The notes under the pieces were generated by a model. It had not been told where the DNA came from. It worked only from the letters and a program-made list of their open reading frames with translations, and searched no databases. From IMG/VR virus record IMGVR_UViG_3300043587_000032, positions 1-61,315 of that record: a stretch of 61,315 nucleotides of DNA. One strand, given 5' to 3'. Numbering within the stretch: the first letter of the stretch is position 1; each line of letters opens with the position of its first letter. The stretch is from a virus. Lineage: Duplodnaviria > Caudoviricetes. Below, one piece after another: positions 8,258 through 61,315 of the stretch. The translations under genes were made by a program, and so were the position numbers.

Positions 8258-8260
8258 GTG

Positions 8261-11418: not shown

Positions 11419-11421
11419 GGG

Positions 11422-40591: not shown

Positions 40592-42735
40592 CGCATCAGC
40601 TCTTCCAAGGCAATGCCTCGCTCCAGCTCCAGCGCGAGTGACGACTTCTCCGTGCCGAGCTTGTCCGGCGCGGCCTCCGGCGAGCGGCCCCACTGCCCAA
40701 GCAGGTCACCGAGCTTCGCCGCCACACGGGTAGCGAGCTCGTCGTAGTCGATCCCGCCGGGCCCGAACGCGATCGCCGGACGGGTCGCACCGGCCGCGGT
40801 CATCGCCATCGGGACACCCGACGCTACGCGCGCCCTGGTAACCGGGTAGCCCGGGGTGTTGACCGAGAGCACCGCCACCATCTCGAGGTGCCCGCCGTAG
40901 TTGCGCCAGTCGCCGGACGGCGCCGCGGCCAGCAGGCGCGCACGGTCACGCTCAGACAGCTCGGGGTCGATCGCCCCGGCGATCCAGATGCCGAAGGTGT
41001 CCTCCCCTGCCGCCACGTCGGCCGCGTTGGTGCCGGTGTTGTCGTAGTGCGCGACGGTGTCGGCGGCGTTGGCGGACAGTTCGGCGTGCCCGGTGTCCAT
41101 CGTGAGGTGGCCGACGGCGACCGTGCGGCGTGCACCTTCGTCGTCGAGGGCGAAGCGGGCGCCGGTCATGAAGTAGGCGTAGTCGGTGCCCGAGCGCGGC
41201 GGCGGCGTGCACTGGCGTGAGATGCCGATGTGGCAGGTGCCCCACGTTGCGATGTGCCCGAAGATCTGGCCGGTGTCCGGGTCGATCTGGAGCGGCGTCG
41301 GGCCGTCGAGCTTCGGGTCCTCGAACCAGGCGACCGGCGGCAGTTCGGCGAGCTTCTTCTTCAGGAAGTCCGGCTTGCCCTTGGCCTTCGTCTTGGTCTT
41401 CGGGTCATCTTCGTCGTCAGCCTTCTTCGCCTTGGCGTTCTTCAGGAACTGCGGCGGGATCTTGCCGAACTCCTCGACCGCACACGAGAGGCAGTCGTCT
41501 CCGAGCTCGCTCGCGGAGAACGCGGCCGCGGTGATGGTCGCGACGCCCTTGGACTCGAGCAGGGCGCGCAGCTTCTCGAGCGTGTCGGCGGCGGCCAGCT
41601 CCTCCGCGGGCATGCCGGGGCGCGAGCCGTCGATCTCGACGTACGCGTCGGGGAATGCCGGGATGGCGCACAGGGTGGTGGCAGCGATGACGCCCTTGGA
41701 CACGGCCGTCTGGGTGGTCTCTTCGCCGTCCTCGCCGTAGGTCACGTCCTCGACCCAATCGAGCTCCGAGAGATCCACCGAGTTGCCGGTGAGGTAGCCC
41801 TTCGCGGCGAGCTTGCCGCCGACGGACTCGGGGTCGGCGGTGCCGCGTCCCTGCCAGACGAAGGTGCCTTCCGGGAGTGGCTCACCGGTCTGCTTCGAGA
41901 TGAACTCGGGGCCGGGAATCTTCCAGGCTTCGTCGAGCTTGCCCATGATCTCGGCTTTGGCGTGTCCGCCGTCGCTGCCCGGGTTGACGGTCTGCGCGAG
42001 GATGCTGATGGGCAGTGCCCTGGTGGTGAGCGCGCCGGGGTGGATGAACCGGCCGTCAGCGGTGGCCTTGCCCTCGACGGCGAGGCAGGGGAAGAAAAGC
42101 TGGAGCTCGCCGTCCTTCTCGGTGACGACCGGCGTCGCGGTCTCCGTGCTGGTCATCTCCATCACTCCGTTTCCTGCGTACCTCGAGGGCGGCGTCATGT
42201 CGCCCGCCTGGTCGTCGCCCCACCCGGTCAGCGGGAAGTCGTGATCCTTGCCTGCCAGTGCCAGCCGGACCGTGGAGAAGCGCGCCGTGCCCTTCGCCTT
42301 GGGGAGGGTGGTCTCCGGCAGTTCGTACCCGGCGCAGATGTGCGGCGCCCACGGCTCGAACTGCTTCGGGTAGCGGCCGGTGCCGAGCACCGACACTCCA
42401 ATATCACGGGCGTACTGGTTCGCGTCCTGCATGGCGAAGGTCGGCGTCAGCGTGGTGTTCGTCGAGGGCTTGTGCTTGCCGTCCGGCCCGCCGTCGCGAT
42501 TCCAGATCGCCGGGCCCATGATCTGCGCCTCGATCGGCCCCAAGTTGGTGGCCATCCGGGCGACGCGCTCGATGAGCTCCTCGCGGGTGGCATCGTCGAG
42601 GTCGGTCACGTCGTCACCGAGGAACACCAGGGTGCAGTGGATGACGCCGGTGGGATCCCCTCCGGGCACGGTGAACTGGCCAGGCGAGTCCGGGATAAGG
42701 GCGATCATGCCGCCGGTCTGCACGTCGTCAGCCAC
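40570..42735 (-). CDS. Capsid maturation protease with N-terminal 2H phosphoesterase domain
   Basis: HCTL/PHIC 2H motifs; TADGR..GH..GNSVDL..IPAF; GHIATWGTCH; SGDWR..VNTPGYP. Confidence 0.8.
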   Translation of the reverse strand: MADDVQTGGMIALIPDSPGQFTVPGGDPTGVIHCTLVFLGDDVTDLDDATREELIERVARMATNLGPIEAQIMGPAIWNRDGGPDGKHKPSTNTTLTPTFAMQDANQYARDIGVSVLGTGRYPKQFEPWAPHICAGYELPETTLPKAKGTARFSTVRLALAGKDHDFPLTGWGDDQAGDMTPPSRYAGNGVMEMTSTETATPVVTEKDGELQLFFPCLAVEGKATADGRFIHPGALTTRALPISILAQTVNPGSDGGHAKAEIMGKLDEAWKIPGPEFISKQTGEPLPEGTFVWQGRGTADPESVGGKLAAKGYLTGNSVDLSELDWVEDVTYGEDGEETTQTAVSKGVIAATTLCAIPAFPDAYVEIDGSRPGMPAEELAAADTLEKLRALLESKGVATITAAAFSASELGDDCLSCAVEEFGKIPPQFLKNAKAKKADDEDDPKTKTKAKGKPDFLKKKLAELPPVAWFEDPKLDGPTPLQIDPDTGQIFGHIATWGTCHIGISRQCTPPPRSGTDYAYFMTGARFALDDEGARRTVAVGHLTMDTGHAELSANAADTVAHYDNTGTNAADVAAGEDTFGIWIAGAIDPELSERDRARLLAAAPSGDWRNYGGHLEMVAVLSVNTPGYPVTRARVASGVPMAMTAAGATRPAIAFGPGGIDYDELATRVAAKLGDLLGQWGRSPEAAPDKLGTEKSSLALELERGIALEELMRPFPVRS

Positions 42736-43358: not shown

Positions 43359-45899
43359 TCACTCCCTGTCCAGCCACTTTTGCTGCACTGCGACCATACG
43401 ATCGCGCTGGTCCCGGGTGCGCTGACTGTGCGTGCCGGTGCGCCCGGCGGCGTCGTCGAGCTCGGCAAGGTGCCGCTCGCCGCGCATGGCGCCGGACTCT
43501 TCGTCGATGACGGACTGAGCGATGTCGTCGGCCTCGACCAGCGCCCACGATGGGACGTAGTCGCACATGCAGCCGGAGTGGTCGCCGGGCTTGTAGTGCG
43601 AGCCGATCCAGGCGTACTTCGGCTCGGGGATCAAGGCGGGATCGTCGTATCCCTCGAAGCGGCGCCCCGCGATAGCGAAGTGCGGCTCAAAGTGCCTCGA
43701 CCGGGGTGTCACCCCGTAGCGCCACGTGAAGCCCACACGGGGGCCCTGAGCGTCCAGTGTGCGCAGGATGTCGCCACCGAGCGCGATACCGCCGTCAGTG
43801 GTCGAGCCCCCGCCGATCTCCGAGAGCGCGTCCCGCACGTCGCCGGGCAGCACGATGGTGTCCGGCACTTCGCCGCGCAGTTCGTCACCGGCCCGGCCGT
43901 ACAGCTTCGCCATCGCCCGGTCCTTCAGGCTGCCCTCGAGCCGCTTCCAGGCGGCCGGGATCCGCGCCGTCATGGCCTGCGTCAGCGCTGCCAGCGTCGA
44001 GAGCGGCAGGTACGTCATCTCGGCTACGGCCTTCACGGACTGCGTGATGGCGTAGGTGGACCACTGGGTGAACTTGACCGCGAGGTAGGCGAAGGCGGCG
44101 GCGAGCAGGATGTCTTCGGTCAGCCCGAGCTCCTCGAGCCGGTCCCGGCCGACCATGGCGCACACGTCGACCGGGTCGGCACCCTTGACCTGGAGCGCCA
44201 ACGCGGCATCCTTGCCCTGCACCTTCGCCTTGACCTTGTTGCCCGCCTTCTCGAGCGCGCGAATCAGCGCGTCGTCGGCGGCCTGCATAATCCGGTCGCG
44301 TAGCGCGGCGTCGATCTCCGCGAGCCTGTCCCCCGACCTGACCTTGATGGCCGGTCCGCTCGAGGCCACCCGCACGCCGGAAGGTGCCGTGTCCGGCGCG
44401 GTGCTCGGGGTTCGCGGTGGGTCGCCGGGCCCACGGGGCATCTCCTCGATCTGGGCGGGCTGGCGCACCTGCCCCTGGATGATCTGCGGCGTCTGCTGGC
44501 GCTGCGTGCCGAGCATCTCCGCGGCCAGCTGGCTGAGCGTGTCCGGCGGCGTGGTGCCCTTGAACATCGCCAGCTGCTTCAGGTCTTCTTCGTCGGGCGC
44601 GTCGTCCTCGTTGAATCCCTTGGCCTTGCGGTACGCGACGTAGGACAGGCCGCCGCGATCCATGGCGGCGTCGGCATCGGCGGACCGGTTGGCGTTCTCG
44701 GTGATGTTCCCGGCGTCATACCAGATCTGAACGGAGAGGGCTTCGTCCTTCGTCAGGCCGTAGCCGTTGTCGGACTCGGGCAGCATCAGCAGGCGCCGGA
44801 AGTAGGACTCCGTGAGGGAGTCGACGATCAGGCGGCAGGACGGCTCGATGTGCTCCTTGAACTTGGCGGCGTCCATCATGGCGCCTGACCAGTGGTTCAT
44901 CTCGCCGACGCGCATGGCGTCGGACGGCAGGTCGAGGCCGTCGGCGATGCGGTTCAACGCGGCCTGCATCTTGCCGAGCAGGTCATCGGAGGTCTCGCGT
45001 TCGAAGCGGACGTGCCGAACTTCCTTCAGGTCTTCTGCTTCGCCGCGGACCAGGATGGGCGCGACGGATCCGGCGTCGCCCTCGTTCATGATCGGCGCGG
45101 TGATGGCGGCCGTGAAGTTGGCGCTGAAGCGGTCGTTCTCCGGGTCGAGCGTGGCACCCGAGCGCGCCATCAGCGTCAGCTCGTTGGGGATGAGGATGAT
45201 GCCGTTCGCGGCGATGCGGGACTTCGAGGCTGCCCGGATCTCGCGACCGGCCAAGATCACGTCTTCGCACACGTCGAGCATGGTGCGCAGCGGGGAATCG
45301 GCCAGGCCGGACCACTGGGGGTGTGGGACCCAGAGCCTGATCAGGGTCTCGGTCTTGGCGTTGATGGGGCGTGCGGCCCGGCCGGGGATGTCGATGATGC
45401 CGAGTCCGCCGTTGCCGGGGATGACTTCGCTGGTGGACCTGATCATCCACTGCTCGTCGCCGTACTGGTCGGGGAAGCCGTGTAGCCAGCATTCGCCGGG
45501 GATGTCGAACGACTGACTGATCATGCCCTGGAAGCGGTAGCCGGATCCGAACGGGAGCCGGGACAGGCAGTCGCGGGCGGCTTCCGCTACTCGCCTGTCC
45601 ACGGGGAGATCTTCGTCTGGCGTGGGGTTCCCGTCGCCGTCCTCGAGCACGATGATGTTCGGTTCGTCGTCTCCGCCGCTGACGGCGGCGATGGTGAACT
45701 GGACCTTGGAGATGATGTTCGCCTTGTTGCGCAGCGCGGACCCGAGCTCGGGGATGAGGTCCCGGTAGTTCCAGGCGATGGCTTGCCAGGCCATCTTGGT
45801 CTTGCCGAGATCGGTGATGCTGTTGCGGTCGCGGAGGTCGATGACCTGTCCGGATGCGGTGCTGGCGTTCCTGCGCTTCGTCGACCAGGGGAGGGGCAT
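43359..45899 (-). CDS. Portal protein with C-terminal MuF-like domain
   Basis: WQAIAW..IPGECW..RLW.PHP..ADSP..ANGIILIP..NHWS; C-terminal PGDHSGCMC. Confidence 0.85.
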   Translation of the reverse strand: MPLPWSTKRRNASTASGQVIDLRDRNSITDLGKTKMAWQAIAWNYRDLIPELGSALRNKANIISKVQFTIAAVSGGDDEPNIIVLEDGDGNPTPDEDLPVDRRVAEAARDCLSRLPFGSGYRFQGMISQSFDIPGECWLHGFPDQYGDEQWMIRSTSEVIPGNGGLGIIDIPGRAARPINAKTETLIRLWVPHPQWSGLADSPLRTMLDVCEDVILAGREIRAASKSRIAANGIILIPNELTLMARSGATLDPENDRFSANFTAAITAPIMNEGDAGSVAPILVRGEAEDLKEVRHVRFERETSDDLLGKMQAALNRIADGLDLPSDAMRVGEMNHWSGAMMDAAKFKEHIEPSCRLIVDSLTESYFRRLLMLPESDNGYGLTKDEALSVQIWYDAGNITENANRSADADAAMDRGGLSYVAYRKAKGFNEDDAPDEEDLKQLAMFKGTTPPDTLSQLAAEMLGTQRQQTPQIIQGQVRQPAQIEEMPRGPGDPPRTPSTAPDTAPSGVRVASSGPAIKVRSGDRLAEIDAALRDRIMQAADDALIRALEKAGNKVKAKVQGKDAALALQVKGADPVDVCAMVGRDRLEELGLTEDILLAAAFAYLAVKFTQWSTYAITQSVKAVAEMTYLPLSTLAALTQAMTARIPAAWKRLEGSLKDRAMAKLYGRAGDELRGEVPDTIVLPGDVRDALSEIGGGSTTDGGIALGGDILRTLDAQGPRVGFTWRYGVTPRSRHFEPHFAIAGRRFEGYDDPALIPEPKYAWIGSHYKPGDHSGCMCDYVPSWALVEADDIAQSVIDEESGAMRGERHLAELDDAAGRTGTHSQRTRDQRDRMVAVQQKWLDRE

Positions 45900-50663: not shown

Positions 50664-50909
50664 TCATCGGAGGTCCTCAATCTGTGTGGTGTCGAGCGAG
50701 ACGCAGGCGTTGAACATCTCGCTAGGGGATGCCGTGCAGTTCGCGGCGATCGCGGTGCCGGTGACGACGTTGGTATAGGTGGCCATGTCGTGCACGAGCT
50801 CGATGCCGCCGATGAGCGCCATGATGAGCATGGCCGGGCCGACCAGCCAGATAACCAGGTCTTTGAGGATCGAGTTATGCGGCTTGGCGGTGCGGGCCGT
50901 GGTGCTCAT
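50664..50909 (-). CDS. Small membrane protein
   Basis: Single TM; downstream of the palindrome promoter at 50949-50977. Confidence 0.55.
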   Translation of the reverse strand: MSTTARTAKPHNSILKDLVIWLVGPAMLIMALIGGIELVHDMATYTNVVTGTAIAANCTASPSEMFNACVSLDTTQIEDLR

Positions 50910-51264
50910 CTGGAGTTCCGTTCGTCGCGGGACTTGCTGTCTCCAGTGATGTTACCCCCCAAAGTGGGGGGAGACAAGGGCCCTCGACCGGCGATCGGAA
51001 CAATTCTCGTAACGCCGTCTGGGTGTGGCCGCCCCACGTGCCGAACTCCTCGCGACGCTCCACCGCGCCCTGGAGGCACGCCAGCCTGATCGGGCAGTCC
51101 GTGCACATCGCCAAGGCGCGCTTGTTGTCCGCCGTGTAGGAGGAATCCGGGAACCAGGCATCCGGGTCGGCCTGCGCGCACACTGCACCCTGGTAGTCCT
51201 CCAGGGTGTGACCGATCTCGAAGTCCCACTTCAGGCGCTCTTCGTACGCGCCGATGCGCATCAC
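50875..51264 (-). CDS. whiB: WhiB-family transcription factor (second copy)
   Basis: AVCAQADPDAWFP..MCTDCPIR.AC..GTWGG. Confidence 0.88.
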   Translation of the reverse strand: MMRIGAYEERLKWDFEIGHTLEDYQGAVCAQADPDAWFPDSSYTADNKRALAMCTDCPIRLACLQGAVERREEFGTWGGHTQTALRELFRSPVEGPCLPPLWGVTSLETASPATNGTPDEHHGPHRQAA

Positions 51265-52499: not shown

Positions 52500-52537
52500 C
52501 GGGGGCCTCCGTGGTTCCGGTCCGGGTTGGTGAAGCC

Positions 52538-52655
52538 AATCTATCCCCCCAAAGTGGGGGGTGTCAAGGAAAACCTTCGCGGCAGGGGTATGAATCTGCG
52601 GCGTGTCTCCCCCTCGGCTCTATCCCCCCAGGTTGGGGGGCCCTATCCTGAGCGC
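52538..52655. promoter_or_regulatory. Divergent control region with two C6-N5-G6 palindromes
   Basis: 52545-52561 in TTGACA..TAGATT (minus); 52624-52640 before TATCCT-N6-ATG (plus, transfer operon). Confidence 0.75.
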
Positions 52656-52865
52656 ATGAAGATACGAACCGCAATCGCAATTGCAGGGCTCACCCTGCTG
52701 GCGATCAACCTCATCGCGGGAGTCTCGATGCTCGCGGTCTGGATCATCGCCACCTACGCCGCGCACCTCCCCGTTCGGGACTACGTCGGCCGCCGGACCG
52801 GATTCGCCCGAGTCGATCTCATCGAGCCCACTGAGACCGTCGAGACCGCTGAGATCGGAGACTGA
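52656..52865 (+). CDS. Small membrane protein (Spd-like), first gene of the transfer operon
   Basis: 69 aa, hydrophobic N-half, leaderless. Confidence 0.6.
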   Translation: MKIRTAIAIAGLTLLAINLIAGVSMLAVWIIATYAAHLPVRDYVGRRTGFARVDLIEPTETVETAEIGD

Positions 52866-54480
52866 CCAATGCGCCTGCCCACGCTCCCCGTAACCCGCCT
52901 TCGGCTGTTCGCCACCCTGCCGGTTGCGTCCGCCGCCATCATCTCGTTCGACTCGGTCCGCCACCTTGCGGAGTCCGCCGGGTTCGGACCGCTCGCGTGG
53001 CTCTTCCCGCTCACCATGGACGCCGCCGTGGCGTTCGGTACGGACCTGTGGATTCGGCGAAAGCAGTCCGCCGCGATGAGCAAGGCGCGCGCACTCGCGC
53101 TCACCGTCATGGCCGGGTCGCTGGTCGCGAACACCGTGGACCACTACATGACCGGATCGATCCTGGGCGGTCTGCTGGGGGCGGTCCCGCCGACCGTGCT
53201 CGCCTGGATGTTGCTGGTCCTGCATCAGCACGGTCTAGGCGAAGCGGACCAGGATGCACCGGACCAGACAGACCGCTTCTCTGGTCCCGGACCGGTCGCC
53301 ATCTCCTACACGGTCCCGCGGTTCCTTGCGGTCCCGCGGTCCACGGTCCACGTCGAATCGGACCGCGCCATGGACGCGACGGTCCGAGAACTGGTCCAGA
53401 TCGTCCGGACCGACGGCGAGCCCGGTCCGGTCCCGAACTGGGAGAAGCCGGACCGGACCGGGCCACTGCCGCAGCCGCGTAAGCGGACCAGCGCCGCCCG
53501 GACCCCCGCCACCACGGTCCGGCGGTCCGCCACCGCGAAGGCGCCCGAGGACCGCGAGATCGTCGCGTGGATCTCGGACCAGCCGACGGCGCCGACCAAG
53601 CAGCAGATCATGGACCGCTACCCGATCGGGTCCGGGCGCGCCTTGCGCCTGCGGACCGCCGCCACCGCGAAGGAGTCGACCGATGAGTAAGGGCAAGCAG
53701 CAAGGCGGTGCGCTCGATATCGCCGCCGGTGCGCTGATGGCGAAGTTCTCCATCTGGGCACTGGGCAAGCTCGGCAAGGGCACCCGCCGCCTGGTCTTCC
53801 GGTGGCGGCGGGCCATCTCGCCGGTCCTGTTCGCCGGTCTCGTGTTCCTGCTCGCCGTGGTCCTGCGCGAGACGGTCCCGTGGCTTTGGTGGACCGCCGC
53901 GGTGCTGCCGGTCTGCGGCGGTCTGCTCGCCTACTTCGGACCGGTCCTGTCCGAGAGGTGGTCCGGTCTGGTTACGCGGCTGGTCCCGGCTGGCTTGGAC
54001 CGCGGCCGTGACGGCGTGCTGGACCGCCCGGTCGAGCGGATCTATCTCGCCGCGATGCTCACCACCATCGGGACCTACCTCGCGGTCCGGTGGGGTTTCG
54101 GTCCGAGCGAGTTCACCGGGTGGACCTGGAAGATCGGTCTGCTCGTGTTCGGCGGGTCCTGGTGGTACCACCGCCGCATCCGGACCGCCGGTCGCGCGGA
54201 CCGCGTTGCGAAGCGCTGGACCAAGTTCACGCGGTCCGACACGTGCCCGGCGAACCTGAAGCCGCTCGTCGGGTCCAAGGTCCTGAGTGCGACCGGCGAG
54301 GGTCGCAACTCGGTGCTGAAGGTCCGGGTTGCCGACGCCGGGACCGCCGCGAACGTCGAGCGTCTTGGCAACCCGCTCGCGGCGTATTTCAAGATGCGGC
54401 CGGGCTCGGTCCACATCAAGGGCGACATGGTGGACGCCGGGGTGGCCTGGTTCACCTTCATGCCGAAGGACCCGTGGTCG
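52790..54480. repeat. Dense GGWCC (GGACC/GGTCC) array
   Basis: About 57 sites by hand count in about 1.7 kb, 25 of them in 53240-53660. Confidence 0.85.
52869..53690 (+). CDS. DUF2637/Spd-like membrane protein with C-terminal HTH
   Basis: SFDSVRHLA..AWLFPLTMD..SLVAN..H..AVPP four-TM domain; TKQQIMDRYPIGSGRALRL HTH. Confidence 0.8.
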   Translation: MRLPTLPVTRLRLFATLPVASAAIISFDSVRHLAESAGFGPLAWLFPLTMDAAVAFGTDLWIRRKQSAAMSKARALALTVMAGSLVANTVDHYMTGSILGGLLGAVPPTVLAWMLLVLHQHGLGEADQDAPDQTDRFSGPGPVAISYTVPRFLAVPRSTVHVESDRAMDATVRELVQIVRTDGEPGPVPNWEKPDRTGPLPQPRKRTSAARTPATTVRRSATAKAPEDREIVAWISDQPTAPTKQQIMDRYPIGSGRALRLRTAATAKESTDE

Positions 54481-55596
54481 GGCAAGATCCCGCACCCGAT
54501 GCCCGAGCCGGGCTCGATCTCGCTGAAGTCGACCCGCGGCCGGTTCAAGATGGGGGAGCTCGCGAACGGCGACGACCTGATCTATCAGCTCCAGCACACC
54601 TTGGCCGTCGGCATGAACGGGTCCGGCAAGTCGATCTGGCTGCACGCGCTCATGGCCTGGCTGGTCGCCTGCTCGGACTGTCTGGTGGTCGCCATCGATA
54701 TGGCCGGTGGCGCGACTCTCACCGTGTGGCGTAAGGCGTTGAGTCTGCCCCTTGCGACTGACCTGGATTCGGCGATGGTGGTGCTGAACTCGGTGTTTGC
54801 GGTGATCGCGGATCGCGAGCGCCAGCTTGGCGTGGCTTCCGAACTCGATGATGACGCGGCCGACTCCTTCGAGCCGACGCGGGAAACGCCGTGGATGGTG
54901 TTGATCATCGATGAGTTCCCTGACCTGCTCGCGGAAGCGAAGACGGCCGGGGTCGAGAAGCAGGTGATCACCCTGCTCGGCCGGATCGCGAAGAAAGCCC
55001 GCAAGTGCGGAATCCGGCTGTTCTTCGCCAGCCAGAACGGCACCAAGGTCGACCTGGGCTCGAAGGAGCTTCAGGCGCAGCTCAGGGCCATTGTCGGACT
55101 CCAGCTCGACGTGCAGCAGAGTAAAAACCTGTGGGGCGAGCAGATGCGCATGGGGTGGAACTCGACGATCCTCCAGTCCGGACAGTTCCTGCTGAAGGAC
55201 GACGAACACACCATGCCCGCGATCGCGAAGGGTCTCTTCGTCGAGATGAAGGAGCGCCGCGAGCAGGCCAATAAGGCCTCTGAGCTGCACAAACAACTGG
55301 AGCCGTCAGCCAATGCCGCCTTGATCGGCATGGCGGGTTCATACCTGCCGCCGGAGATCGTGGTGCCCGCCGAGCCCGGCGATCCGATCCTGGAGTACCT
55401 GGCCACCGTCGATGGCACCGGCGCGCGGGCGGCCGACATCGTGGACCTAGTGCCCGGCGTGGGCTCGAAGGCCACCGTCTTCCGGCGGCTCGGGCGGCTG
55501 AAGGAGGAAGGGCTTGCGCACTCGCGCGGCGGCGTGTGGCACGCGGGGCCGGACACGCGTAACCCGCAGGACCGCGCGGACGAGTCCGCGGCGTAG
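53683..55596 (+). CDS. traB: TraB-like FtsK/SpoIIIE DNA translocase
   Basis: N-terminal TMs, GMNGSGKS Walker A, LIIDE Walker B, ARKCGI..ASQ, C-terminal wHTH (SKATVFRRLGRL..G.W). Confidence 0.85.
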   Translation: MSKGKQQGGALDIAAGALMAKFSIWALGKLGKGTRRLVFRWRRAISPVLFAGLVFLLAVVLRETVPWLWWTAAVLPVCGGLLAYFGPVLSERWSGLVTRLVPAGLDRGRDGVLDRPVERIYLAAMLTTIGTYLAVRWGFGPSEFTGWTWKIGLLVFGGSWWYHRRIRTAGRADRVAKRWTKFTRSDTCPANLKPLVGSKVLSATGEGRNSVLKVRVADAGTAANVERLGNPLAAYFKMRPGSVHIKGDMVDAGVAWFTFMPKDPWSGKIPHPMPEPGSISLKSTRGRFKMGELANGDDLIYQLQHTLAVGMNGSGKSIWLHALMAWLVACSDCLVVAIDMAGGATLTVWRKALSLPLATDLDSAMVVLNSVFAVIADRERQLGVASELDDDAADSFEPTRETPWMVLIIDEFPDLLAEAKTAGVEKQVITLLGRIAKKARKCGIRLFFASQNGTKVDLGSKELQAQLRAIVGLQLDVQQSKNLWGEQMRMGWNSTILQSGQFLLKDDEHTMPAIAKGLFVEMKERREQANKASELHKQLEPSANAALIGMAGSYLPPEIVVPAEPGDPILEYLATVDGTGARAADIVDLVPGVGSKATVFRRLGRLKEEGLAHSRGGVWHAGPDTRNPQDRADESAA

Positions 55597-55710
55597 TCGC
55601 AGAATCGCAGTCTCGCGCCACACCCGTAATGTGGGCAGACGTGAGACTGCGTGATTTTGAGATCAACATGCCCCCGGACCAGGGGGTTAGATCTGGAATC
55701 AGCGGTACAG

Positions 55711-55755
55711 AAAGGCCCTCCTTACCCCGGGAAATCTCAGGGAAGGAGGGCCTTT
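55711..55755. terminator. Bidirectional terminator after traB
   Basis: AAAGGCCCTCCTT..AAGGAGGGCCTTTT. Confidence 0.8.
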
Positions 55756-55763
55756 TCGCAGCT

Positions 55764-56087
55764 TCAGGCGCCTTTGGGCGACGCTCCCCAGGGTCCGAAG
55801 GACTTCCAGACCTGCCGCGACACCACCACGGAGTGCGGATGCGCGCGCTGCCGCTTGATGGCCTGCGTCTTGTCCAGGGCCTTCCAGGTGGCCTCCGGGT
55901 CCTCGATGTCCTCGGTGGTGCCCCACTCCGTCACGGCCTCGATGCGGCCGGGGAACTGCACGGTGTCGAGCTCCTGCCACGGCATCGGCAGGCCCATGGC
56001 GTGGACCCGCGCCCAGTACTGGGCGCGGTCTTCGTCCGGGTCATAGCTCGGGTACTTGAACACGAAGGCGTGGCGGACCTGCGTCAT
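55764..56087 (-). CDS. Hypothetical protein
   Basis: GAGGA RBS; ATGA coupling. Confidence 0.55.
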   Translation of the reverse strand: MTQVRHAFVFKYPSYDPDEDRAQYWARVHAMGLPMPWQELDTVQFPGRIEAVTEWGTTEDIEDPEATWKALDKTQAIKRQRAHPHSVVVSRQVWKSFGPWGASPKGA

Positions 56088-56272
56088 GGCGCTTTCCTCT
56101 CGATGTCGGCGGCGAGGATGGCAATTGCGGTGGCGGCGTTTACCAGCAGAATCAGGGCCACGCCGATGACGTACGGCGACGCAGCGGACTCGTGATCGAT
56201 GGACGTGCAGAACCAGAAGAACGCGGTGCAGGTGGCGACCATCGCAAGCCTGGCGCGGATCACTTCGTCCAC
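56084..56272 (-). CDS. Two-TM membrane protein
   Basis: Hydrophobic segments. Confidence 0.5.
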   Translation of the reverse strand: MDEVIRARLAMVATCTAFFWFCTSIDHESAASPYVIGVALILLVNAATAIAILAADIERKAP

Positions 56273-56778
56273 CTGGCGAGCAGCTCGGCACCGACGACGG
56301 TGATGGCGCCGCGGACGCCGACGGCCTTGGCGTCGATCAGGGACTGGATTGCCCGGCGAGCCTGCGCACCCTCGAGGACGACCTCGGTGCCGGACACCAC
56401 GCGAACGCTCATGCGCTGAAGAACGGGATCAATGTGCAGGGTGCCCGCGTCGGCGTGCCGCAGCGCACCGAGCCGAAGGGGGGACTTGCGGGGCATGGCG
56501 CCCATGGCCTTGGCTCGCTTTCGCTCGTTGCCGAGATGGCTGCCGGTCTCCGAATTGCACGGGGTGCAGGCGGGACGGATGTTGCCGCGGACGTACCGGC
56601 CGCCCTCGACGCCGGGAGTGATGCGGTCCACCGAGATGGTCTCGTCGGTGACGAAGGTGCCACACCGGAAGCAGGGGGCCTTCGTGCCGTCGCCGAACTG
56701 CTGGAGCAGCCAGGCGCGGCGAATGCGGCGGGTTTGACTGGAGCCGCGGGAGTTGGTGTTCGAGGTACCTCGGGTCAT
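56260..56778 (-). CDS. HNH endonuclease
   Basis: CFRCG..VDRI.PG..GGRY..GNIRPAC.PCN. Confidence 0.8.
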   Translation of the reverse strand: MTRGTSNTNSRGSSQTRRIRRAWLLQQFGDGTKAPCFRCGTFVTDETISVDRITPGVEGGRYVRGNIRPACTPCNSETGSHLGNERKRAKAMGAMPRKSPLRLGALRHADAGTLHIDPVLQRMSVRVVSGTEVVLEGAQARRAIQSLIDAKAVGVRGAITVVGAELLARWTK

Positions 56779-57080
56779 TCCGGCCGCCGAATGGACTTGG
56801 CTCGGGCGACCTCAACCAGCGCACCGGAGGGCGTGCGCTCCTCGTAGATCACGATGGTCTCGCTCGCGCCCTGAGCTTTGCGCAGCGCGTAGGCCTCACC
56901 TTCGGCGCGCAGCTGGAGCGCGTCCCGGCGGTGGAGCTCGGTGCGCAGGATCTCGACCTCCGCGAGGATGGGATCCCGCTCAACGCGGGCGGGGTGAAGC
57001 GAGTAGGCCTTTTTCGTTTCGTAGAAGCGGGCCAATTGATCGTTTCGAAGGTCGCGCACGCTGTCTTTGGTGAGGTTCAT
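56775..57080 (-). CDS. Hypothetical protein
   Basis: Leaderless after TTGTCA-C6-AAAAT-G6-TAGCAT (57088-57116). Confidence 0.6.
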   Translation of the reverse strand: MNLTKDSVRDLRNDQLARFYETKKAYSLHPARVERDPILAEVEILRTELHRRDALQLRAEGEAYALRKAQGASETIVIYEERTPSGALVEVARAKSIRRPE

Positions 57081-57119
57081 GACGGGAATGCTACCCCCCA
57101 TTTTGGGGGGTGACAAGCC

Positions 57120-57824
57120 CTACTTCCCGGCGAGCTGAGCGAACGCATCCAGGCCATTGCTCACGCCCGTCCACCACGGCCCGCCAGCCGCCGCCACCGT
57201 CACCACGGCCAGGACACCAGCCGCGGCAGTCAGGATCCACGTCGCAATCACCTCACCCTTGACGATCGTGCCCGGCAATCCCCCCGCACGGAACCGCAGC
57301 ACCGACGGGTAGCCGACAGTGAACCAGCGCTTGCCCTGCCGTTTGACCAGTGGCCACGCCGGGTGCGGCACGCCGGAGAGCGTGCAGGCGTCGCCGATGA
57401 ACCAGACGTGCGTCAGGCAGCCAACGGTCACCGAGGAGCCCAGGAAGATGCCCCACGCCGCGTAGGGCGTGAACTGGAGCGCCGCGTACAGGCCGCCGCC
57501 GTGGATGAGCGCAAAGGCGGTGGTGTGCGTGAACGTGCGGTGACAGCCGGTCGGCCGATCCTTCTCGGTGCGCGTGGCCTGGTAAATCACCTCGGACAGC
57601 CACCGGTAGAACCAGCAGATCGCGGGCGAGAGCAACGGGATCATCTTCGAGGCGACGGCTGGCTTGTGATCGATGTCCGGCATGAGTGCACACAGGGCCA
57701 CCAGGATGGCGTAGACGGCATAGATCCCAAGGTGGCGCGCTGCCCCCTCCAGGTCGGGCGTGGGCACGAGCGGGGCAACGAGCAGGCCGGACACCACGCC
57801 GGAGACGAAGTGTCCCTTACTCAT
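57120..57824 (-). CDS. Membrane metal-dependent hydrolase (YdjM-like)
   Basis: GH, MPDIDH, HRTFTH, H...GDA.T..GVP motifs; multiple TMs. Confidence 0.8.
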   Translation of the reverse strand: MSKGHFVSGVVSGLLVAPLVPTPDLEGAARHLGIYAVYAILVALCALMPDIDHKPAVASKMIPLLSPAICWFYRWLSEVIYQATRTEKDRPTGCHRTFTHTTAFALIHGGGLYAALQFTPYAAWGIFLGSSVTVGCLTHVWFIGDACTLSGVPHPAWPLVKRQGKRWFTVGYPSVLRFRAGGLPGTIVKGEVIATWILTAAAGVLAVVTVAAAGGPWWTGVSNGLDAFAQLAGK

Positions 57825-57862
57825 TATGTCGTCCACCTCCCCACGGTGTGTACAGTTCCATC

Positions 57863-59444: not shown

Positions 59445-59969
59445 TCAACCCGCTTCGCCCAGCATCCTCCGTTTGCGCAAAACCCGCTGCACCGTGTCGC
59501 ACTCCTCGCGGTACAACCGCCCGCCCGGTGACCTCCAGCGACCATCCGACATCTTCGCCCACTCGCCCGGGTGATGGATGTCGGTGCGCTCCGTCCGGCC
59601 GTGACTGTGCCGACCGTGGCGGCTCGTGCGCCGCGTCGTCGCCAACGGGTCCGAGTTGTCCACCTCGGTCAGTTCGTCGAGCTCGTAAGGCTCGCCCTTC
59701 CAAGTCGCGTAGCTGGCGAGCTGCGCCTCCGTGAAGGCGGCCTGGAGCGCATCGAGGAGCTGGCGCGGCCCGGATGCCACGACGGCCCATCCGCGGGCCT
59801 GGTGAGTCGACACGCGTACCCGGCCGGGTGAGAGCACGTCGATGCGCACCTCGATCGACTTGACCTGGTGAAGCACCGGCGGCGGCCCGACATGCTCAGG
59901 CAGGCCGGGACCGACCGTGCCGTGAGGTCCGGGGCGGTGGGTCTCCCCCTGCCGCCGGATGTCGTTCAC
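59445..59969 (-). CDS. Conserved hypothetical protein after terL
   Basis: GTGA coupling, GAGGAG RBS; DGRWRSPGGRLY. Confidence 0.6.
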   Translation of the reverse strand: MNDIRRQGETHRPGPHGTVGPGLPEHVGPPPVLHQVKSIEVRIDVLSPGRVRVSTHQARGWAVVASGPRQLLDALQAAFTEAQLASYATWKGEPYELDELTEVDNSDPLATTRRTSRHGRHSHGRTERTDIHHPGEWAKMSDGRWRSPGGRLYREECDTVQRVLRKRRMLGEAG

Positions 59970-61315
59970 GTTCTCCTCATCATCGAACCGAGCCGCTCGA
60001 GGTTCACCGACTCCTGACTTTGCCGCGTCGGCAACGTGCCCTGTGCCGGGTTCAAACTGGGCTCGCCCTGGTTTGCCGAGAGTTGATCGATGGCGTGCAC
60101 CGCGGCGTCCATCCGGTCCGGCGAATCCTGCGACTCCTGCCACGCCACCATCTGATGCACGAGCTCCATGAAGAACCCCACGTGGTGCACCTTGCCGGTC
60201 TCGTGCAGCGGCGCCACCATCTGCGCGCGGAACGACTTGGAGCCGCGGGCGGTGAACCCCCTGATCGGGATTCCGGCCTCGGTCAGGCGCATCACCTTCG
60301 GGACGTGTGGCCATAGCTCTTTGAGGCCCCTCTCCATCGCCAGCACGTCTTCGGCTTCGGCGTCATCACGGCACAGTGCTTGGGTGGCTTGCTGGAGCAG
60401 GACTCCGTCAGGCAGCTTCGGCCAGGCCTTTAGGTTGCCTTGCAGCTGGTAGAGCTTCAGGGCTTCGCGACGCACGTCCTTCCAGGCCTGCTTCGCCGAT
60501 CGCCGCAGGCCGGACAGGGAACGCTCGTAGCGGATCGCGGTGGCGTCGTACTCGAACGCGGCGATGTGCGCAGCGCGGAACCAGGACGCCACGGACATGT
60601 GGCCGGACTCGTCGGCGAGGATGTAGTAGTGGCTGTCGATACCGCGGCCAGCCACGATGATGCCCGCTTCGTCGCCGTCGCCTTCGTTGTCGGCCGGGTC
60701 CACGAAGACCTCGGTTTTGAGGAGCTCGGGCGCTGCCTTGACGCGGTGGTTGTTGATCCACGCGAGCTTGAACACGCCACCGGCGGGCGGGTGCGGATCG
60801 GCCTGGTAGAGCGCCGACCAGAACCGCTCACCTACGCGGCGCTCAATGTCCTTCCAGTCCTCCGGCGTGCGGCGGCGGGTCGAGTTCAGGTACTCGCCGG
60901 GCTCCCGCCCGAGGGCGTCGTTCTTCTTTGCCTGCGCCGGGATGATCAGGTGGTGGAAGTCAGGCGTCAGGGCGAGGCCGTCTTGCCGCATGAGGTAGCC
61001 CATGAGGTCGTCTTCGTGCCATCGGGTGCCGATGATGATCACGATCGCGCCGGGGGACAGGCGGGTGGTGGCCACGGCCTGGTACCAGTCGAGGATGTGC
61101 TTACGCTGTTCCGCGCTGTCCGCCTGCTTCGAGTTCTTCACCGAGTCGTCGATGATCATCACGTCAGCGGATCGACCGGTGAGCGCGCCACCCACGCCGA
61201 CCGCGACCATCCCGCCGTTGCGGCGGCCCGGCCCGTCAATCAGGTTCCAGTTCGTCTGCTGCGCACGGTCGGGGTCGAGGATCAACCCGAGGTGGTCATC
61301 CTGGTTCCGGTGGAA
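59966..61315 (-). CDS. terL: Terminase large subunit, 3' part
   Basis: GGALTGRSAD.MIIDD, TRWHEDDL, ALYQADP, VDPA, SPDRMDA. Confidence 0.92.
   Translation of the reverse strand, partial: FHRNQDDHLGLILDPDRAQQTNWNLIDGPGRRNGGMVAVGVGGALTGRSADVMIIDDSVKNSKQADSAEQRKHILDWYQAVATTRLSPGAIVIIIGTRWHEDDLMGYLMRQDGLALTPDFHHLIIPAQAKKNDALGREPGEYLNSTRRRTPEDWKDIERRVGERFWSALYQADPHPPAGGVFKLAWINNHRVKAAPELLKTEVFVDPADNEGDGDEAGIIVAGRGIDSHYYILADESGHMSVASWFRAAHIAAFEYDATAIRYERSLSGLRRSAKQAWKDVRREALKLYQLQGNLKAWPKLPDGVLLQQATQALCRDDAEAEDVLAMERGLKELWPHVPKVMRLTEAGIPIRGFTARGSKSFRAQMVAPLHETGKVHHVGFFMELVHQMVAWQESQDSPDRMDAAVHAIDQLSANQGEPSLNPAQGTLPTRQSQESVNLERLGSMMRRT
61189..61315. repeat. Terminal direct repeat, copy 2
   Basis: Identical to 1-127. 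Confidence 0.95.

What the first reader, a model, noticed from the sequence alone, without database searches (positions are those of the whole stretch)
52624..55755. Tailed phage carrying a TraB/Spd-type conjugation operon: possible virion-free spread through mycelium
Seen: a self-contained + strand operon with a promoter bearing the phage's own C6-N5-G6 operator, a small membrane protein, a DUF2637-like four-TM+HTH protein, a 637-aa FtsK-family ATPase (TMs, intact Walker A/B, C-terminal wHTH) and a terminator. Knowledge: in Streptomyces plasmids and AICEs a single TraB translocates circular dsDNA between hyphae, and Spd proteins spread it across septa. There is no AICE integrase, excisionase or Rep alongside, and the shared operator argues for domestication rather than a chance insertion. 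Inference: the phage genome moves between compartments or mating partners, bypassing receptors and adsorption.
Basis: partly seen in the sequence, partly recalled or inferred. Interest (0 to 1): 0.92.

Follow-up and report, generated by a model that had tools for sequence, protein, structure and literature searches.

The report
Phage lineage with conjugation-type DNA pump
A complete 61-kb tailed phage of soil actinomycetes, and a whole family of its relatives, carries a three-gene membrane DNA-pump module of the kind that Streptomyces plasmids use to move double-stranded DNA between hyphae, together with a dense array of short DNA repeats that looks like the pump's loading site, so the phage genome itself may travel without a virion.

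Summary
The window is a closed virus genome with capsid, portal, tail and terminase genes. Its only plus-strand block is a 69-aa membrane protein, a DUF2637 protein and a 637-aa FtsK-family ATPase with membrane helices, intact Walker motifs and a C-terminal winged helix, closed by a strong terminator. It is not a chimera: the module sits in the same place and orientation in related virus contigs, 8 of 8 tested being 99-100% complete with the same capsid gene. The ATPase lies outside the chromosomal FtsK and EccC clades. It is closer by profile to plasmid TraB than to FtsK, and full-length like TraB-like proteins of actinomycete mobile elements, but it scores far below NCBI's TraB cut-off and the deep tree is unresolved. 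DUF2637 genes also lie upstream of TraB in one canonical TraB locus and in Streptomyces plasmids.

New here: the densest short-repeat cluster of the genome (GGWCC, core CGGWCCG) spans the DUF2637 3' half and the ATPase 5' end. It exceeds codon-shuffle expectation, and relatives keep it in place with clade-specific words, as clt or sps sites do. No integrase, ParAB or repressor was found among the proteins scanned.

Precedents are plasmid-phage pZL12 and SpdB2 homologues in phiC31 and VWB. Transfer itself is untested and the host is unknown.

The parts
52538..52567 (-). Sigma-70-like promoter (TTGACA, 18 nt, TAGATT) of the divergent minus-strand gene. Its spacer is the C6N5G6 element at 52545-52561.
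   Evidence: Promoter scan; motif search; flank analysis.
52624..52640 (+). C6N5G6 element (CCCCCCAGGTTGGGGGG) ending 15 nt before the first start codon of the plus-strand operon. Its flanks are CTCTAT and CCCTAT: no -35 hexamer, but a -10-like TATCCT. It is the likely regulated promoter of the module.
   Evidence: A C6N5G6 copy lies about 300 nt upstream of the DUF2637 gene in L002, L007, L008, L011, L012, L014 and L017.
52656..52865 (+). Small membrane protein, 69 aa, with one hydrophobic helix (residues 14-32). No known family.
   Evidence: A 63-aa counterpart precedes the DUF2637 gene in Amycolatopsis locus L029.
52869..53690 (+). DUF2637-family membrane protein, 273 aa. It has a conserved hydrophobic N-terminal domain (~1-120), a hypervariable middle, and a conserved C-terminal helix-turn-helix-like motif. 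It is the Spd-like partner.
   Evidence: Pfam PF10935 E 7e-9; alignment A2. DUF2637 genes lie upstream of TraB or FtsK-like genes in L092, L088, L089 and L029.
53138..54100 (.). Array of GGWCC repeats (core CGGWCCG, a 7-bp palindrome). 28 copies lie in 53138-53653, and 42 of the genome's 258 lie within -800..+400 of the ATPase start. The array overlaps the 3' half of the DUF2637 gene and the 5' end of the ATPase gene. It is the candidate cis-acting loading site (clt- or sps-like).
   Evidence: Codon-shuffle control: 27 observed against 7.9 +/- 2.3, with 0 of 2000 shuffles reaching it. Same place, clade-specific words in relatives.
53683..55596 (+). TraB-like FtsK-family dsDNA translocase, 637 aa: N-terminal membrane helices, FtsK alpha/beta motor with Walker A and B, and a C-terminal winged helix.
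55711..55758 (.). Strong hairpin with an A run before and a U run after, lying between the convergent plus operon and the minus-strand genes. It is an intrinsic terminator, probably working in both directions.
   Evidence: Inverted repeat I14; fold -40.3 kcal/mol, z -3.26.

Best explanation
The three genes form a TraB/Spd-type double-stranded-DNA translocation module that an old lineage of tailed actinophages has made part of its own genome. The ATPase would assemble as a membrane-anchored ring. It, or the HTH tail of the DUF2637 partner, would load on the phage genome at the CGGWCCG repeat array that lies inside the module. ATP hydrolysis would then pump phage dsDNA through a membrane or septal channel, which the DUF2637 protein and the small membrane protein help to form. 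The most likely use is to carry replicating phage genomes across hyphal cross-walls into neighbouring compartments, and perhaps into touching hyphae. One adsorption event could then exploit a whole mycelium.

Shown: the gene content, the architecture, the conservation, the affinity to mobile-element TraB-like proteins, and the repeat array with its clade-specific words.

Inferred: ring formation, binding of the array, the partner complex, the direction and destination of transport, and a mycelial host.
For: (1) True and complete phage. Structural and packaging genes are present. The record has direct terminal repeats and is 100% complete by CheckV, with an exact 127-nt end overlap.

(2) Ancient, conserved module.
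- 24 IMG/VR contigs encode relatives.
- Of those 24 loci, tblastn finds the DUF2637 gene upstream on the same strand in 14. On the opposite strand downstream it finds the YdjM-like gene in 20 and the large terminase in 17.
- ATPase identity (37-60%) tracks terminase identity (44-70%).
- 8 of 8 tested ~60-kb records are 99-100% complete and carry the same capsid gene at 55-72% identity.
- At least 22 of 98 protein relatives sit on contigs of 57-64 kb.
- Two complete 150-155-kb virus records with other capsid and terminase genes also carry it, at 52% identity.

(3) Affinity of the ATPase.
- The family is one clade (SH-aLRT 99), outside chromosomal FtsK (100) and EccC (92).
- Profile-profile comparison against TraB and TraB-like proteins gives E 1.6e-24 over 342 columns.
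- Against chromosomal FtsK it gives E 4.5e-14 over 305 columns.
- Against the TraB-like proteins L066 and L067 it gives E 7.9e-52 over 543 columns, from membrane domain to winged helix.
- All 28 of 28 family members match NCBIfam plasmid_TraB, 20 match EccCa and 12 match FtsK.
- The model's best PDB matches are FtsK motor domains bound to dsDNA (E 4e-19), then the conjugation coupling protein TcpA.

(4) Partner gene. A DUF2637 gene lies upstream on the same strand of a canonical TraB (989 bits) in L092. The same holds for FtsK-like genes in Streptomyces plasmids L088 and L089.

(5) Cis site.
- CGGTCC is the most clustered 6-mer of the genome: 16 in 350 nt against a mean of 0.56.
- GGWCC counts are 38 and 17 per kb in the two bins of the module, against a median of 3.
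- The count is 27 observed against 7.9 +/- 2.3 expected from the protein sequence and the phage's own codon usage (0 of 2000 shuffles).
- In 17 of 24 related loci the top-clustered hexamer lies within 800 nt of the ATPase start. The word changes by clade: GGWCC, GGTACC, GGCACC, CRCCAG. Each exceeds codon-shuffle expectation.
- The protein segment under the array is hypervariable.

(6) Published parallels (passages read).
- clt sites are plasmid-specific 7-9-bp repeats next to or overlapping tra, and are bound by the TraB winged helix (PMC4447253; PMC3583192).
- SpdA2 binds a palindrome inside its own gene (PMC4170104, abstract and sections 17 and 21).
Against: - The ATPase scores 49 bits against the 800-bit cut-off of NCBI's TraB model. 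Chromosomal FtsK proteins hit that model with 62-72 bits over its ATPase core, so the TraB hit alone does not discriminate.
- With the family's own ATPase-domain profile, the two true TraB proteins score only 17-18 bits, below chromosomal FtsK at 38-48.
- The deep branches of the tree are unresolved (support 22).
- The winged helix is generic. No FtsK gamma domain is among the top PDB matches, and no match reaches E 0.001.
- The repeat words were chosen after the fact, as the most clustered, so their shuffle counts are optimistic.
- The three loci of the 49-155-kb group (L003, L004, L018), and also L009, L022 and L023, show no such top cluster at the ATPase start.
- The words are palindromic or occur in both orientations, whereas published clt sites are mostly direct repeats.
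- No GntR-type TraR regulator was found among the proteins scanned.
- The host is unknown, so a mycelial lifestyle is inferred only from the Amycolatopsis and Kribbella relatives and a WhiB gene.
- Nothing shows transfer.
Confidence: 0.5

Rival explanations
1. The phage is a plasmid-type temperate element like pZL12/phiZL12. The module serves classical conjugation and spreading of a plasmid prophage between and within mycelia, not spread of a lytic infection.
For: [quoted passage not shown] Its record GQ919031 carries an FtsK-like gene (71c), two neighbours (72c, 73c membrane protein) and a GntR regulator beside the virion genes. The window ATPase is a distant relative of 71c: 25% identity over 215 aa, E 7e-9. 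The window has its own replication initiator and DnaB. Amycolatopsis genomes hold a related module at the edge of a provirus-like region.
Against: No ParA, ParB, integrase, repressor or GntR was found among the window proteins scanned with Pfam or PHROGs, whereas pZL12 has ParAB and an integrase. About half of the small ORFs were not scanned, and many have no family, so lysogeny is not excluded. The DUF2637 protein has no detectable similarity to pZL12.73c.
Confidence: 0.17
2. The pump acts at genome entry or exclusion. Made early from the first DNA to enter, it reels the rest of the phage genome into the cell after loading at the array. Alternatively it sits in the membrane to block or expel superinfecting DNA.
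For: A membrane-anchored dsDNA motor sits with its presumed loading site inside the same short module. The module lies within about 4-8 kb of the terminase genes in all relatives, which could be near a physical genome end. It has its own regulated promoter and terminator.
Against: The physical ends are unknown: the 127-nt end repeat is an assembly overlap. The nearest relatives and the partner gene are those of conjugative elements, not of any known entry or exclusion system. PADLOC gives only weak ATPase-core hits. The array words lack a single orientation that would give direction.
Confidence: 0.12
3. The ATPase mimics host FtsK or SpoIIIE to act on septation and sporulation, for example by pumping phage DNA into prespores for carriage or by disturbing host chromosome segregation.
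For: Papers on Streptomyces phages note FtsK-like and WhiB-like genes and link them loosely to host development (PMC13587820 and bioRxiv 10.1101/2024.02.16.580700, passages). The window also encodes a WhiB-like protein at 50878-51264. The FtsK motor fold is clear.
Against: The family is outside the chromosomal FtsK clade and scores 26 bits against the 1566-bit FtsK model. The repeat array is on the phage itself, which points to the phage genome as cargo. Pumping phage DNA across sporulation septa would be a special case of the main explanation rather than a true rival.
Confidence: 0.1
4. The repeat array is the phage's replication origin or packaging site. Its position inside the module is incidental, and the ATPase has some other role.
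For: Arrays of short repeats mark origins and pac sites in many phages (general knowledge, recalled). No iterons were found next to the initiator gene at 8264-9076, so the origin is unplaced.
Against: The array stays at the DUF2637/ATPase junction in 17 of 24 loci, even where it has shifted into the ATPase 5' end (L005, L006, L010, L015). It changes word by clade. It is also present in the Amycolatopsis provirus-type loci (L021, L029). The initiator, DnaB and terminase genes lie 4-45 kb away.
Confidence: 0.07

Closest known systems
TraB of Streptomyces conjugative plasmids and AICEs (pSVH1 type; NCBIfam NF041214), with its clt site
   Same: Single FtsK-family ATPase with an N-terminal membrane part, a motor domain and a C-terminal winged helix. 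Profile-profile match E 1.6e-24 over 342 columns, better than to chromosomal FtsK. A DUF2637 gene lies upstream, as in TraB locus L092. A dense array of short repeats lies next to and inside the gene, as published for clt.
   Different: 49 bits against a cut-off of 800. The tree does not join them with support. The repeats are palindromic 5-7-mers in dozens of copies rather than a handful of direct 7-9-bp repeats. There is no GntR TraR, Rep or integrase. The carrier is a virion-encoding phage.
TraB-like proteins of other actinomycete chromosomes (L066, L067) and of a Streptomyces linear plasmid (L030)
   Same: These are the best matches outside the family with the family's ATPase profile: 108, 98.5 and 93.6 bits. 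L066 and L067 align over the full length, including the membrane domain motifs and the winged helix (E 7.9e-52). L067 lies in a region with Nudix, DUF5919 and three kinds of IS element.
   Different: Only about 24% identity. They are cellular or plasmid-borne, with no phage genes around them, and their function is untested.
Plasmid-phage pZL12/phiZL12 of Streptomyces (GQ919031; Zhong et al. 2010, title seen only in reference lists; paper not held)
   Same: A genome that makes tailed virions and also carries an FtsK-like tra gene with adjacent membrane-protein genes next to the virion genes. Transfer needs the tra gene and two neighbours (PMC3583192, passage).
   Different: 90 kb, with ParAB, an integrase and a GntR regulator. 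The ATPase is only 25% identical over 215 aa. There is no similarity between pZL12.73c and the DUF2637 protein. It is described as a singleton (PMC7157519, passage), whereas the present module defines a family of about 60-kb phages with no plasmid genes found.
SpdB2 and SpdA spread proteins of Streptomyces plasmids; SpdB2 homologues in phages phiC31 and VWB
   Same: A membrane protein encoded in the transfer operon. SpdA2 binds a palindrome inside its own gene (PMC4170104), as the array here lies inside the DUF2637 gene. Thoma et al. 2015 already suggested that phage SpdB2 homologues might help phage DNA to spread.
   Different: I did not test whether DUF2637 equals SpdB2. No phage in the collection matches the DUF2637 protein at E 0.01. 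According to that paper's remark, phiC31 and VWB carry the Spd homologue, not a TraB.
'FtsK-like DNA translocase' genes annotated in large Streptomyces phages (e.g. Tomas, Gilgamesh)
   Same: FtsK-family ATPases in actinophages: 95 phage records match the ATPase core. Gilgamesh gp10 is followed by a membrane protein and scores 78.6 bits with the family's profile.
   Different: At most 30.6% identity over a third of the protein. The phages are different (120-134 kb). No DUF2637 partner is annotated. Their function is unknown in the papers read.

Membership tests
Plasmid TraB (NCBIfam NF041214, equivalog) | Score above the curated cut-off of the family model | tested here: not met
   49.3 bits, E 2.7e-13, against a cut-off of 800. 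All 28 of 28 family members match, but the best E is only 1.2e-17.
Plasmid TraB (functional kind) | FtsK/SpoIIIE ATPase domain with intact Walker A and B | tested here: met
   PF01580 38.1 bits against a cut-off of 24. G310, G315, K316 and E411 are invariant and D410 nearly so in 28 sequences. FtsK motor is the top fold match, E 4e-19.
Plasmid TraB (functional kind) | N-terminal membrane association domain | tested here: met
   Hydrophobic segments 43-61 and 72-90. Model helices 10-64, 66-88, 116-139 and 143-182. Conserved RWRR and WWYHRR motifs are shared with L067.
Plasmid TraB (functional kind) | C-terminal winged helix that reads the cis site (FtsK-gamma-like) | tested here: inconclusive
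   The winged-helix fold is predicted (pLDDT 81). The PDB matches are generic winged helices, with none at E <= 0.001 and no FtsK gamma among those listed. DNA binding cannot be tested here.
Plasmid TraB (functional kind) | clt: element-specific short repeats next to or overlapping the tra gene | tested here: met
   GGWCC array at 53138-54100. Clade-specific words occupy the same place in 17 of 24 loci. That it acts as clt is not shown.
Plasmid TraB (functional kind) | Operon partners of Spd type (membrane proteins) and a GntR-type TraR | tested here: inconclusive
   A DUF2637 partner and a small membrane protein are present. DUF2637 lies upstream of a canonical TraB in L092 but was not detected in L091. 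No GntR was found among the window proteins scanned.
Plasmid TraB (phylogeny) | Groups with TraB rather than with FtsK or EccC | tested here: inconclusive
   Outside the FtsK (100) and EccC (92) clades, but the backbone has support of 22. hhalign favours TraB (E 1.6e-24) over FtsK (E 4.5e-14). The family's ATPase profile scores true TraB at only 17-18 bits.
Chromosomal FtsK | Match to the FtsK equivalog model and placement in the FtsK clade | tested here: not met
   NF007615 26 bits against a cut-off of 1566. The FtsK clade (8 rows, support 100) excludes the family.
EccC / EssC of type VII secretion | Several tandem FtsK-like ATPase domains; placement in the EccC clade | tested here: not met
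   One ATPase domain in 637 aa. TIGR03924 32 bits against a cut-off of 509. The EccC clade (8 rows, support 92) excludes the family.
DUF2637 (PF10935) | Score above Pfam's gathering threshold | tested here: met
   36.2 bits against 22.8, residues 21-129. The Amycolatopsis counterpart scores 78.1 bits.
AICE (actinomycete integrative and conjugative element) | Integrase, excisionase and Rep beside the tra gene | tested here: not met
   None were found among the window proteins scanned. The window is instead a complete virus genome. For contrast, AICE-type locus L091 has an integrase-like gene and GntR beside TraB.
Phage-plasmid of pZL12 type | Plasmid maintenance genes (ParAB, RepA) together with virion genes | tested here: not met
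   ParAB was not found among the proteins scanned. A replication initiator and DnaB are present, but these are common in lytic phages. Not all small ORFs were scanned.

The most novel reading that the evidence does not exclude
A whole lineage of apparently virulent tailed phages of mycelial actinomycetes has a second, virion-free route of transmission. A domesticated TraB/Spd-type pump loads on a phage-specific CGGWCCG array and drives the replicating phage genome through hyphal cross-walls, and possibly into neighbouring hyphae. Infection would then spread like a conjugative plasmid, bypassing receptors and adsorption-level defences. The clade-specific repeat words would mark a co-evolving pump/site pair that keeps each phage's pump private.
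Probability: 0.35. Interest if true: 0.9.

Novelty: new variant of a known kind. Interest (0 to 1): 0.72.

Why it matters
Phages are assumed to pass from cell to cell only as particles. In mycelial bacteria one compartment is a small part of the organism, and plasmids have evolved a single-protein dsDNA pump plus spread proteins to cross septa. This family keeps such a pump as a core module, together with a matching cis site on the phage genome. That points to a hybrid of infection and conjugation, and it would change how burst size, host range, receptor-based resistance and plaque formation are understood in actinomycetes.

The idea becomes testable. The array and the two DNA-binding tails give direct binding assays. 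The Amycolatopsis proviruses offer a culturable entry point.

The clade-specific words would also be a natural case of pump/site co-evolution, comparable to FtsK-KOPS and TraB-clt.

If the module instead serves genome entry or spore carriage, that too would be a new use of an FtsK-like motor by a phage.

Tried and rejected
**Chimeric assembly: rejected.** The synteny is conserved in independent contigs, and depth is equal on both sides in two runs. Logan contigs of X1 and X2 bridge 52540-57500 in one piece. They break at 52537-52569, where a 31-mer promoter element is repeated in the genome, so the left border is not bridged by a single contig there. Both runs may be the source of the window, so they are not independent.

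**Known phage: no.** No phage record matched the module DNA. The capsid's best match is 37.8% identical.

**Direct scan of viral contigs with the single protein** found nothing. The alignment-based scan worked.

**Defence system: rejected.** PADLOC gave only weak ATPase-core hits.

**tRNA genes:** none.

**An over-represented 8-mer across the genome with strand bias (KOPS-like):** none stood out; the top z was 2.9.

**Tandem repeats or iterons near the initiator gene:** none of note.

**Context of the nearest cellular relative L067.** It lies in a region with Nudix, DUF5919 and IS elements and no tRNA. The 427-aa ORF had no integrase hit, so 'AICE' could not be affirmed.

**Similarity of the DUF2637 protein to pZL12.73c:** none.

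**Complex prediction** of the two membrane domains: no verdict.

**RNA evidence:** no RNA holder listed.

**Literature.**
- Searches for DUF2637 found 2 papers, neither on function.
- Searches combining actinophage or actinobacteriophage, FtsK, TraB, conjugation, spread, hyphae and septa gave no paper that describes a TraB-like module with a cis array in phages.
- Searches for TraB with clt and for pZL12 gave the papers cited here on clt and pZL12.
- The pZL12 paper itself is not held.
- Supplementary files were not consulted and are closed.

**Covariation of the presumed recognition helix with the repeat word.** The nine GGWCC loci with a full-length C-terminus (L001, L002, L005, L006, L007, L008, L011, L012, L014) read SR/SK at the helix start, as does the window, and the GGTACC and GGCACC loci L015, L016 and L019 read AR/AK. 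L010 is an exception, and the loci are not independent. I do not count this as evidence.

Full report
**What the window is.** The window is the whole of a virus record of 61,315 bases. IMG/VR classes it as having direct terminal repeats, and CheckV rates it 100% complete. The ends share an exact 127-nt repeat, which is the overlap of a circular assembly. The small and large terminase genes are neighbours across that junction.

PHROGs finds these genes:
- major head protein (26837-28570, minus strand)
- major tail protein (25618-26766)
- head-tail adaptor (24116-24940)
- tape measure (19261-22032)
- portal (43362-45899)
- large terminase (59969-61285)
- DnaB-like helicase (6950-8257)
- replication initiator (8264-9076)
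- Erf-like annealing protein (13989-14741)

Pfam adds a GH25 lysin (5187-6116), a YdjM-like membrane protein (57123-57836) and an HNH nuclease (56263-56778). There is no tRNA gene. GC is 64-71% throughout, with no compositional island at the module. The capsid's best match in the phage collection is 37.8% identical, so this phage type is not among the listed isolates. The tool may withhold close records.

**The observation.** By GC3 frame analysis almost every gene is on the minus strand. The exception is the block at 52656-55596.

- It starts 15 nt after a C6N5G6 element at 52624-52640. That motif occurs 11 times in the genome against 0.01 expected.
- The block encodes three proteins:
  - a 69-aa protein with one hydrophobic helix;
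  - a 273-aa DUF2637 protein (E 7e-9);
  - a 637-aa FtsK_SpoIIIE protein (E 1.5e-9).
- It ends 115 nt before a strong hairpin with a U run, at 55711-55758.
- Walker A and B residues are conserved in 28 relatives.
- The AlphaFold2 model (pLDDT 83.3) shows four long N-terminal helices, a small beta domain, the motor and a C-terminal winged helix.
- Its best PDB matches are FtsK motor domains, some bound to dsDNA (E 4e-19). The conjugation coupling protein TcpA, EccC/EssC and HerA follow.

One refinement concerns the 'operator'. On the minus strand, 9 of the 11 C6N5G6 copies are flanked by TTGnnn and TAnnnT hexamers, with an ATG 13 nt further on. The element is therefore the 17-nt spacer of a family of sigma-70-like promoters for leaderless genes. 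The copy before the plus operon keeps the palindrome and a -10-like TATCCT but has no -35 hexamer. This suggests that the palindrome itself is a protein-binding site.

**Not a chimera, but a lineage trait.** A protein search found 98 relatives. 89 of them are 43-61% identical, and at least 22 lie on contigs of 57-64 kb. An alignment-based scan of IMG/VR returned 24 loci.

tblastn with the window's proteins gives these counts over the 24 loci:
- the DUF2637 gene lies upstream on the same strand in 14;
- the YdjM-like gene lies downstream on the opposite strand in 20;
- the large terminase lies downstream on the opposite strand in 17;
- the HNH gene and a WhiB-like gene flank the module in many.

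ATPase identity (37-60%) falls together with terminase identity (44-70%).

Eight of eight tested ~60-kb records are 99-100% complete, four of them have terminal repeats, and all encode the same capsid at 55-72% identity. In L002, L007, L008, L011, L012, L014 and L017 a C6N5G6 copy lies about 300 nt upstream of the DUF2637 gene, as in the window.

In two runs that may be the source of the window, single contigs bridge the right border. Depth is equal on both sides of the left border, where the k-mer contigs break at the repeated promoter element.

Two complete virus records of 150-155 kb carry the ATPase at 52% identity but lack homologues of this capsid and terminase, so the gene has also moved between phage types.

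In one genome per species of 185,579 species, only four loci appeared: two in Amycolatopsis (38%), one in Kribbella (29%) and one in a MAG. The Amycolatopsis locus L029 has the same three-gene order, beside host genes on one side and phage-like genes on the other. An IMG/VR provirus record (L021) has the same C-terminus.

A full HMMER scan of 1.84 billion representatives gave 170 proteins at E <= 1e-30. The family is rare but real.

**What the ATPase is related to.** Several lines bear on this.

- *Curated NCBI models.* The best match is plasmid_TraB at 49 bits, against EccCa at 32 and FtsK at 26. All 28 family members match TraB.
- *Caveat on that hit.* This is far below the 800-bit cut-off. 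Ordinary chromosomal FtsK proteins also hit the TraB model's ATPase core, with 62-72 bits. The hit by itself therefore proves little.
- *Local reference set.* I used:
  - two true TraB proteins (998 and 989 bits);
  - five TraB-like proteins;
  - chromosomal FtsK and EccC from three genomes;
  - four plasmid proteins;
  - two phage 'FtsK-like translocases'.
- *Family ATPase profile.* The best outsiders are the TraB-like L066 and L067, a Streptomyces linear-plasmid protein (L030) and phage Gilgamesh gp10. EccC and FtsK come next, and true TraB comes last.
- *Maximum-likelihood tree* (63 rows, 286 columns). The family is one clade (support 99) outside FtsK (100) and EccC (92), but the backbone is unresolved (22).
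- *Profile-profile comparison* is more telling:

| Compared with | E-value | Columns | Extent |
|---|---|---|---|
| TraB set | 1.6e-24 | 342 | starts in the membrane part |
| Chromosomal FtsK | 4.5e-14 | 305 | – |
| L066, L067 | 7.9e-52 | 543 | membrane domain to winged helix |

- *Shared motifs.* L067 shares the WRFR and WWxHRR motifs of the membrane domain. It lies among Nudix, DUF5919 and IS genes.

The reading is that the family is a deep branch of the TraB-like radiation of actinomycete mobile elements. It is neither a chromosomal FtsK nor an EccC, and it is not a member of TraB in NCBI's narrow sense.

The C-terminal domain folds as a winged helix (pLDDT 81). It resembles generic winged helices, not specifically FtsK gamma.

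**The partner.** A DUF2637 protein is encoded upstream of a canonical TraB, on the same strand, in L092 (E 5e-12). The equivalent ORF of L091 gave no hit. Annotated DUF2637 genes lie upstream of FtsK-like genes in Streptomyces plasmids L088 and L089, the latter with a divergent GntR and a WhiB gene.

The phage protein has a conserved membrane domain and a conserved C-terminal VGSGRALRL-type motif. Between them lies a hypervariable middle that even holds an HNH-like insertion in L011 and L012.

I could not test whether DUF2637 corresponds to SpdB2. No paper found deals with DUF2637's function.

**A cis-acting array (new).**

*In the window.*
- A search for clustered short words found one outstanding place in the whole genome. 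GGACC/GGTCC occurs 28 times in 53138-53653, and 42 of the genome's 258 copies lie within -800 to +400 of the ATPase start.
- CGGTCC is the most clustered of all 6-mers: 16 in 350 nt against a mean of 0.56.
- Per kilobase, the two bins of the module hold 38 and 17 copies against a median of 3.
- The core is the 7-bp palindrome CGGWCCG: 13 of its 42 genome copies lie in 53100-54100.
- The copies fall in all three reading frames.
- Back-translating the same protein with the phage's own codon usage gives 7.9 +/- 2.3 copies against 27 observed (0 of 2000). The rare Gly codons GGA and GGT, and CGG and GTC, are over-used there.

*In the relatives.* In 17 of 24 related loci the most clustered hexamer of the 9-22-kb locus also lies within 800 nt of the ATPase start. 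The word differs by clade:
- GGWCC in eleven loci, shifted into the ATPase 5' end in L005 and L006;
- GGTACC or GTACCA in L015, L019 and L010;
- GGCACC in L016;
- CACCAG/CGCCAG in the Amycolatopsis-type loci L021 and L029.

*Controls on the relatives.*
- In the ten relatives tested, each word exceeds its codon-shuffle expectation in the DUF2637 ORF, in the first 600 nt of the ATPase gene, or in both (0 of 1000 shuffles in the stronger interval).
- Each word is scarce in the rest of the ATPase gene.
- The words were picked after the fact, so these counts are optimistic. The coincidence of place does not depend on that choice.

*No top cluster at the junction.* The 49-155-kb group (L003, L004, L018), L009, L022 and L023 show none. 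In L026 the same words rank second and third at the junction.

*Parallels in print.*
- Published clt sites are element-specific 7-9-bp repeats beside or inside the tra gene, read by helix 3 of the TraB winged helix (PMC4447253 and PMC3583192, passages).
- SpdA2 of pIJ101 binds a palindrome inside its own gene (PMC4170104).

The array fits either model. Its presence on the phage says that the cargo is the phage genome.

**Lifestyle and host.** No integrase, excisionase, ParA/ParB, repressor or GntR appeared among the window proteins scanned: 10 with Pfam and 30 with PHROGs. About half of the small ORFs were not scanned, so lysogeny is unlikely but not excluded.

The host is unknown. The window comes from soil metagenomes. 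The only cultured relatives of the module are in Amycolatopsis and Kribbella, which I recall as mycelial genera. The phage also has a WhiB gene. 'Streptomyces' is not supported.

**Precedents.**
- Thoma et al. [quoted passage not shown]
- pZL12/phiZL12 is a 90-kb Streptomyces plasmid-phage. Its transfer needs a tra gene and two neighbours.
  - Its record shows an FtsK-like gene beside the virion genes, together with ParAB, an integrase and GntR.
  - The window ATPase is only 25% identical to it.
- FtsK-like genes are routinely annotated in large Streptomyces phages without a tested role.

What is new here:
- a conserved family of about 60-kb phages, with no lysogeny or plasmid genes found, that carry a TraB-like ATPase;
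- its DUF2637 partner and its own promoter element;
- a co-varying cis array.

My searches found no paper describing this.

- *Most likely (0.5).* The module pumps the phage's own dsDNA across membranes or septa, as TraB and the Spd proteins do for plasmids.
- *Rivals:*
  - conjugation of a plasmid prophage of pZL12 type (0.17);
  - a genome-entry or exclusion motor (0.12);
  - FtsK mimicry in development or spore carriage (0.10);
  - an origin or pac site that merely coincides with the module (0.07).
- *Novelty.* It is a new variant of a known kind.
- *Interest.* High, because a concrete and testable mechanism for virion-free phage spread emerges, with defined genes, a defined site and a possible culturable relative.

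Noticed in passing
window 15276, 29950, 31953, 33184, 37230, 50955, 52545, 57094, 59426 (minus strand): A family of sigma-70-like promoters whose 17-nt spacer is the G/C palindrome C6N5G6: TTGACA/TTGTCA - C6N5G6 - (A)TAGAT/TACGAT/TAGCAT. At six of the nine an ATG follows 12-13 nt after the G run, which implies leaderless transcripts. The palindrome may be the site of a phage regulator.
   Followed up: partly
window 29727-29966 and 31520-31969 (minus strand): Two genes of 69 and 139 aa share an identical promoter and an identical first ~30 nt, including the start codon. This looks like a duplicated 5' module.
   Followed up: no
L011 about 9400-9700 and L012 about 9300-9600: The hypervariable middle of the DUF2637-like gene holds an HNH-endonuclease-like insertion (CWP..GSRT..GYG..RAHR..W..C.NP.H) in two relatives.
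   Followed up: no
L004 (G305, 155,347 nt) and L018 (G306, 149,735 nt): Two complete virus records with terminal repeats carry the TraB-like ATPase (about 52% identity) and a YdjM-like gene. They have no homologue of the window's terminase or capsid, and no repeat cluster at the ATPase start. This is a second, much larger phage type with the same pump.
   Followed up: partly
window 1-127 and 61189-61315; 1163-1759 and 59969-61285: An exact 127-nt terminal repeat, an assembly overlap of a circle. Small and large terminase genes are adjacent across the junction, so the true unit length is 61,188 nt and the physical ends are unknown.
   Followed up: yes
window 40573-42735 and 43362-45899 (minus strand): Two large portal-like ORFs. 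One matches phrog_776 (portal). The other matches phrog_859 (portal), a head maturation protease family and, at its N-terminus, an RNA-ligase family.
   Followed up: no
window 57123-57836 (minus strand): A YdjM-family inner membrane protein gene lies just downstream of the module in 20 of 24 related loci, including the 150-kb phages. It may belong functionally with the pump.
   Followed up: no
L090 (G224:C1) 5703-11697: The closest full-length cellular relative of the ATPase (L067, 576 aa) lies beside a Nudix hydrolase and a DUF5919 protein, among IS110-, IS5- and IS66-type transposases. It is probably a decayed mobile element.
   Followed up: partly
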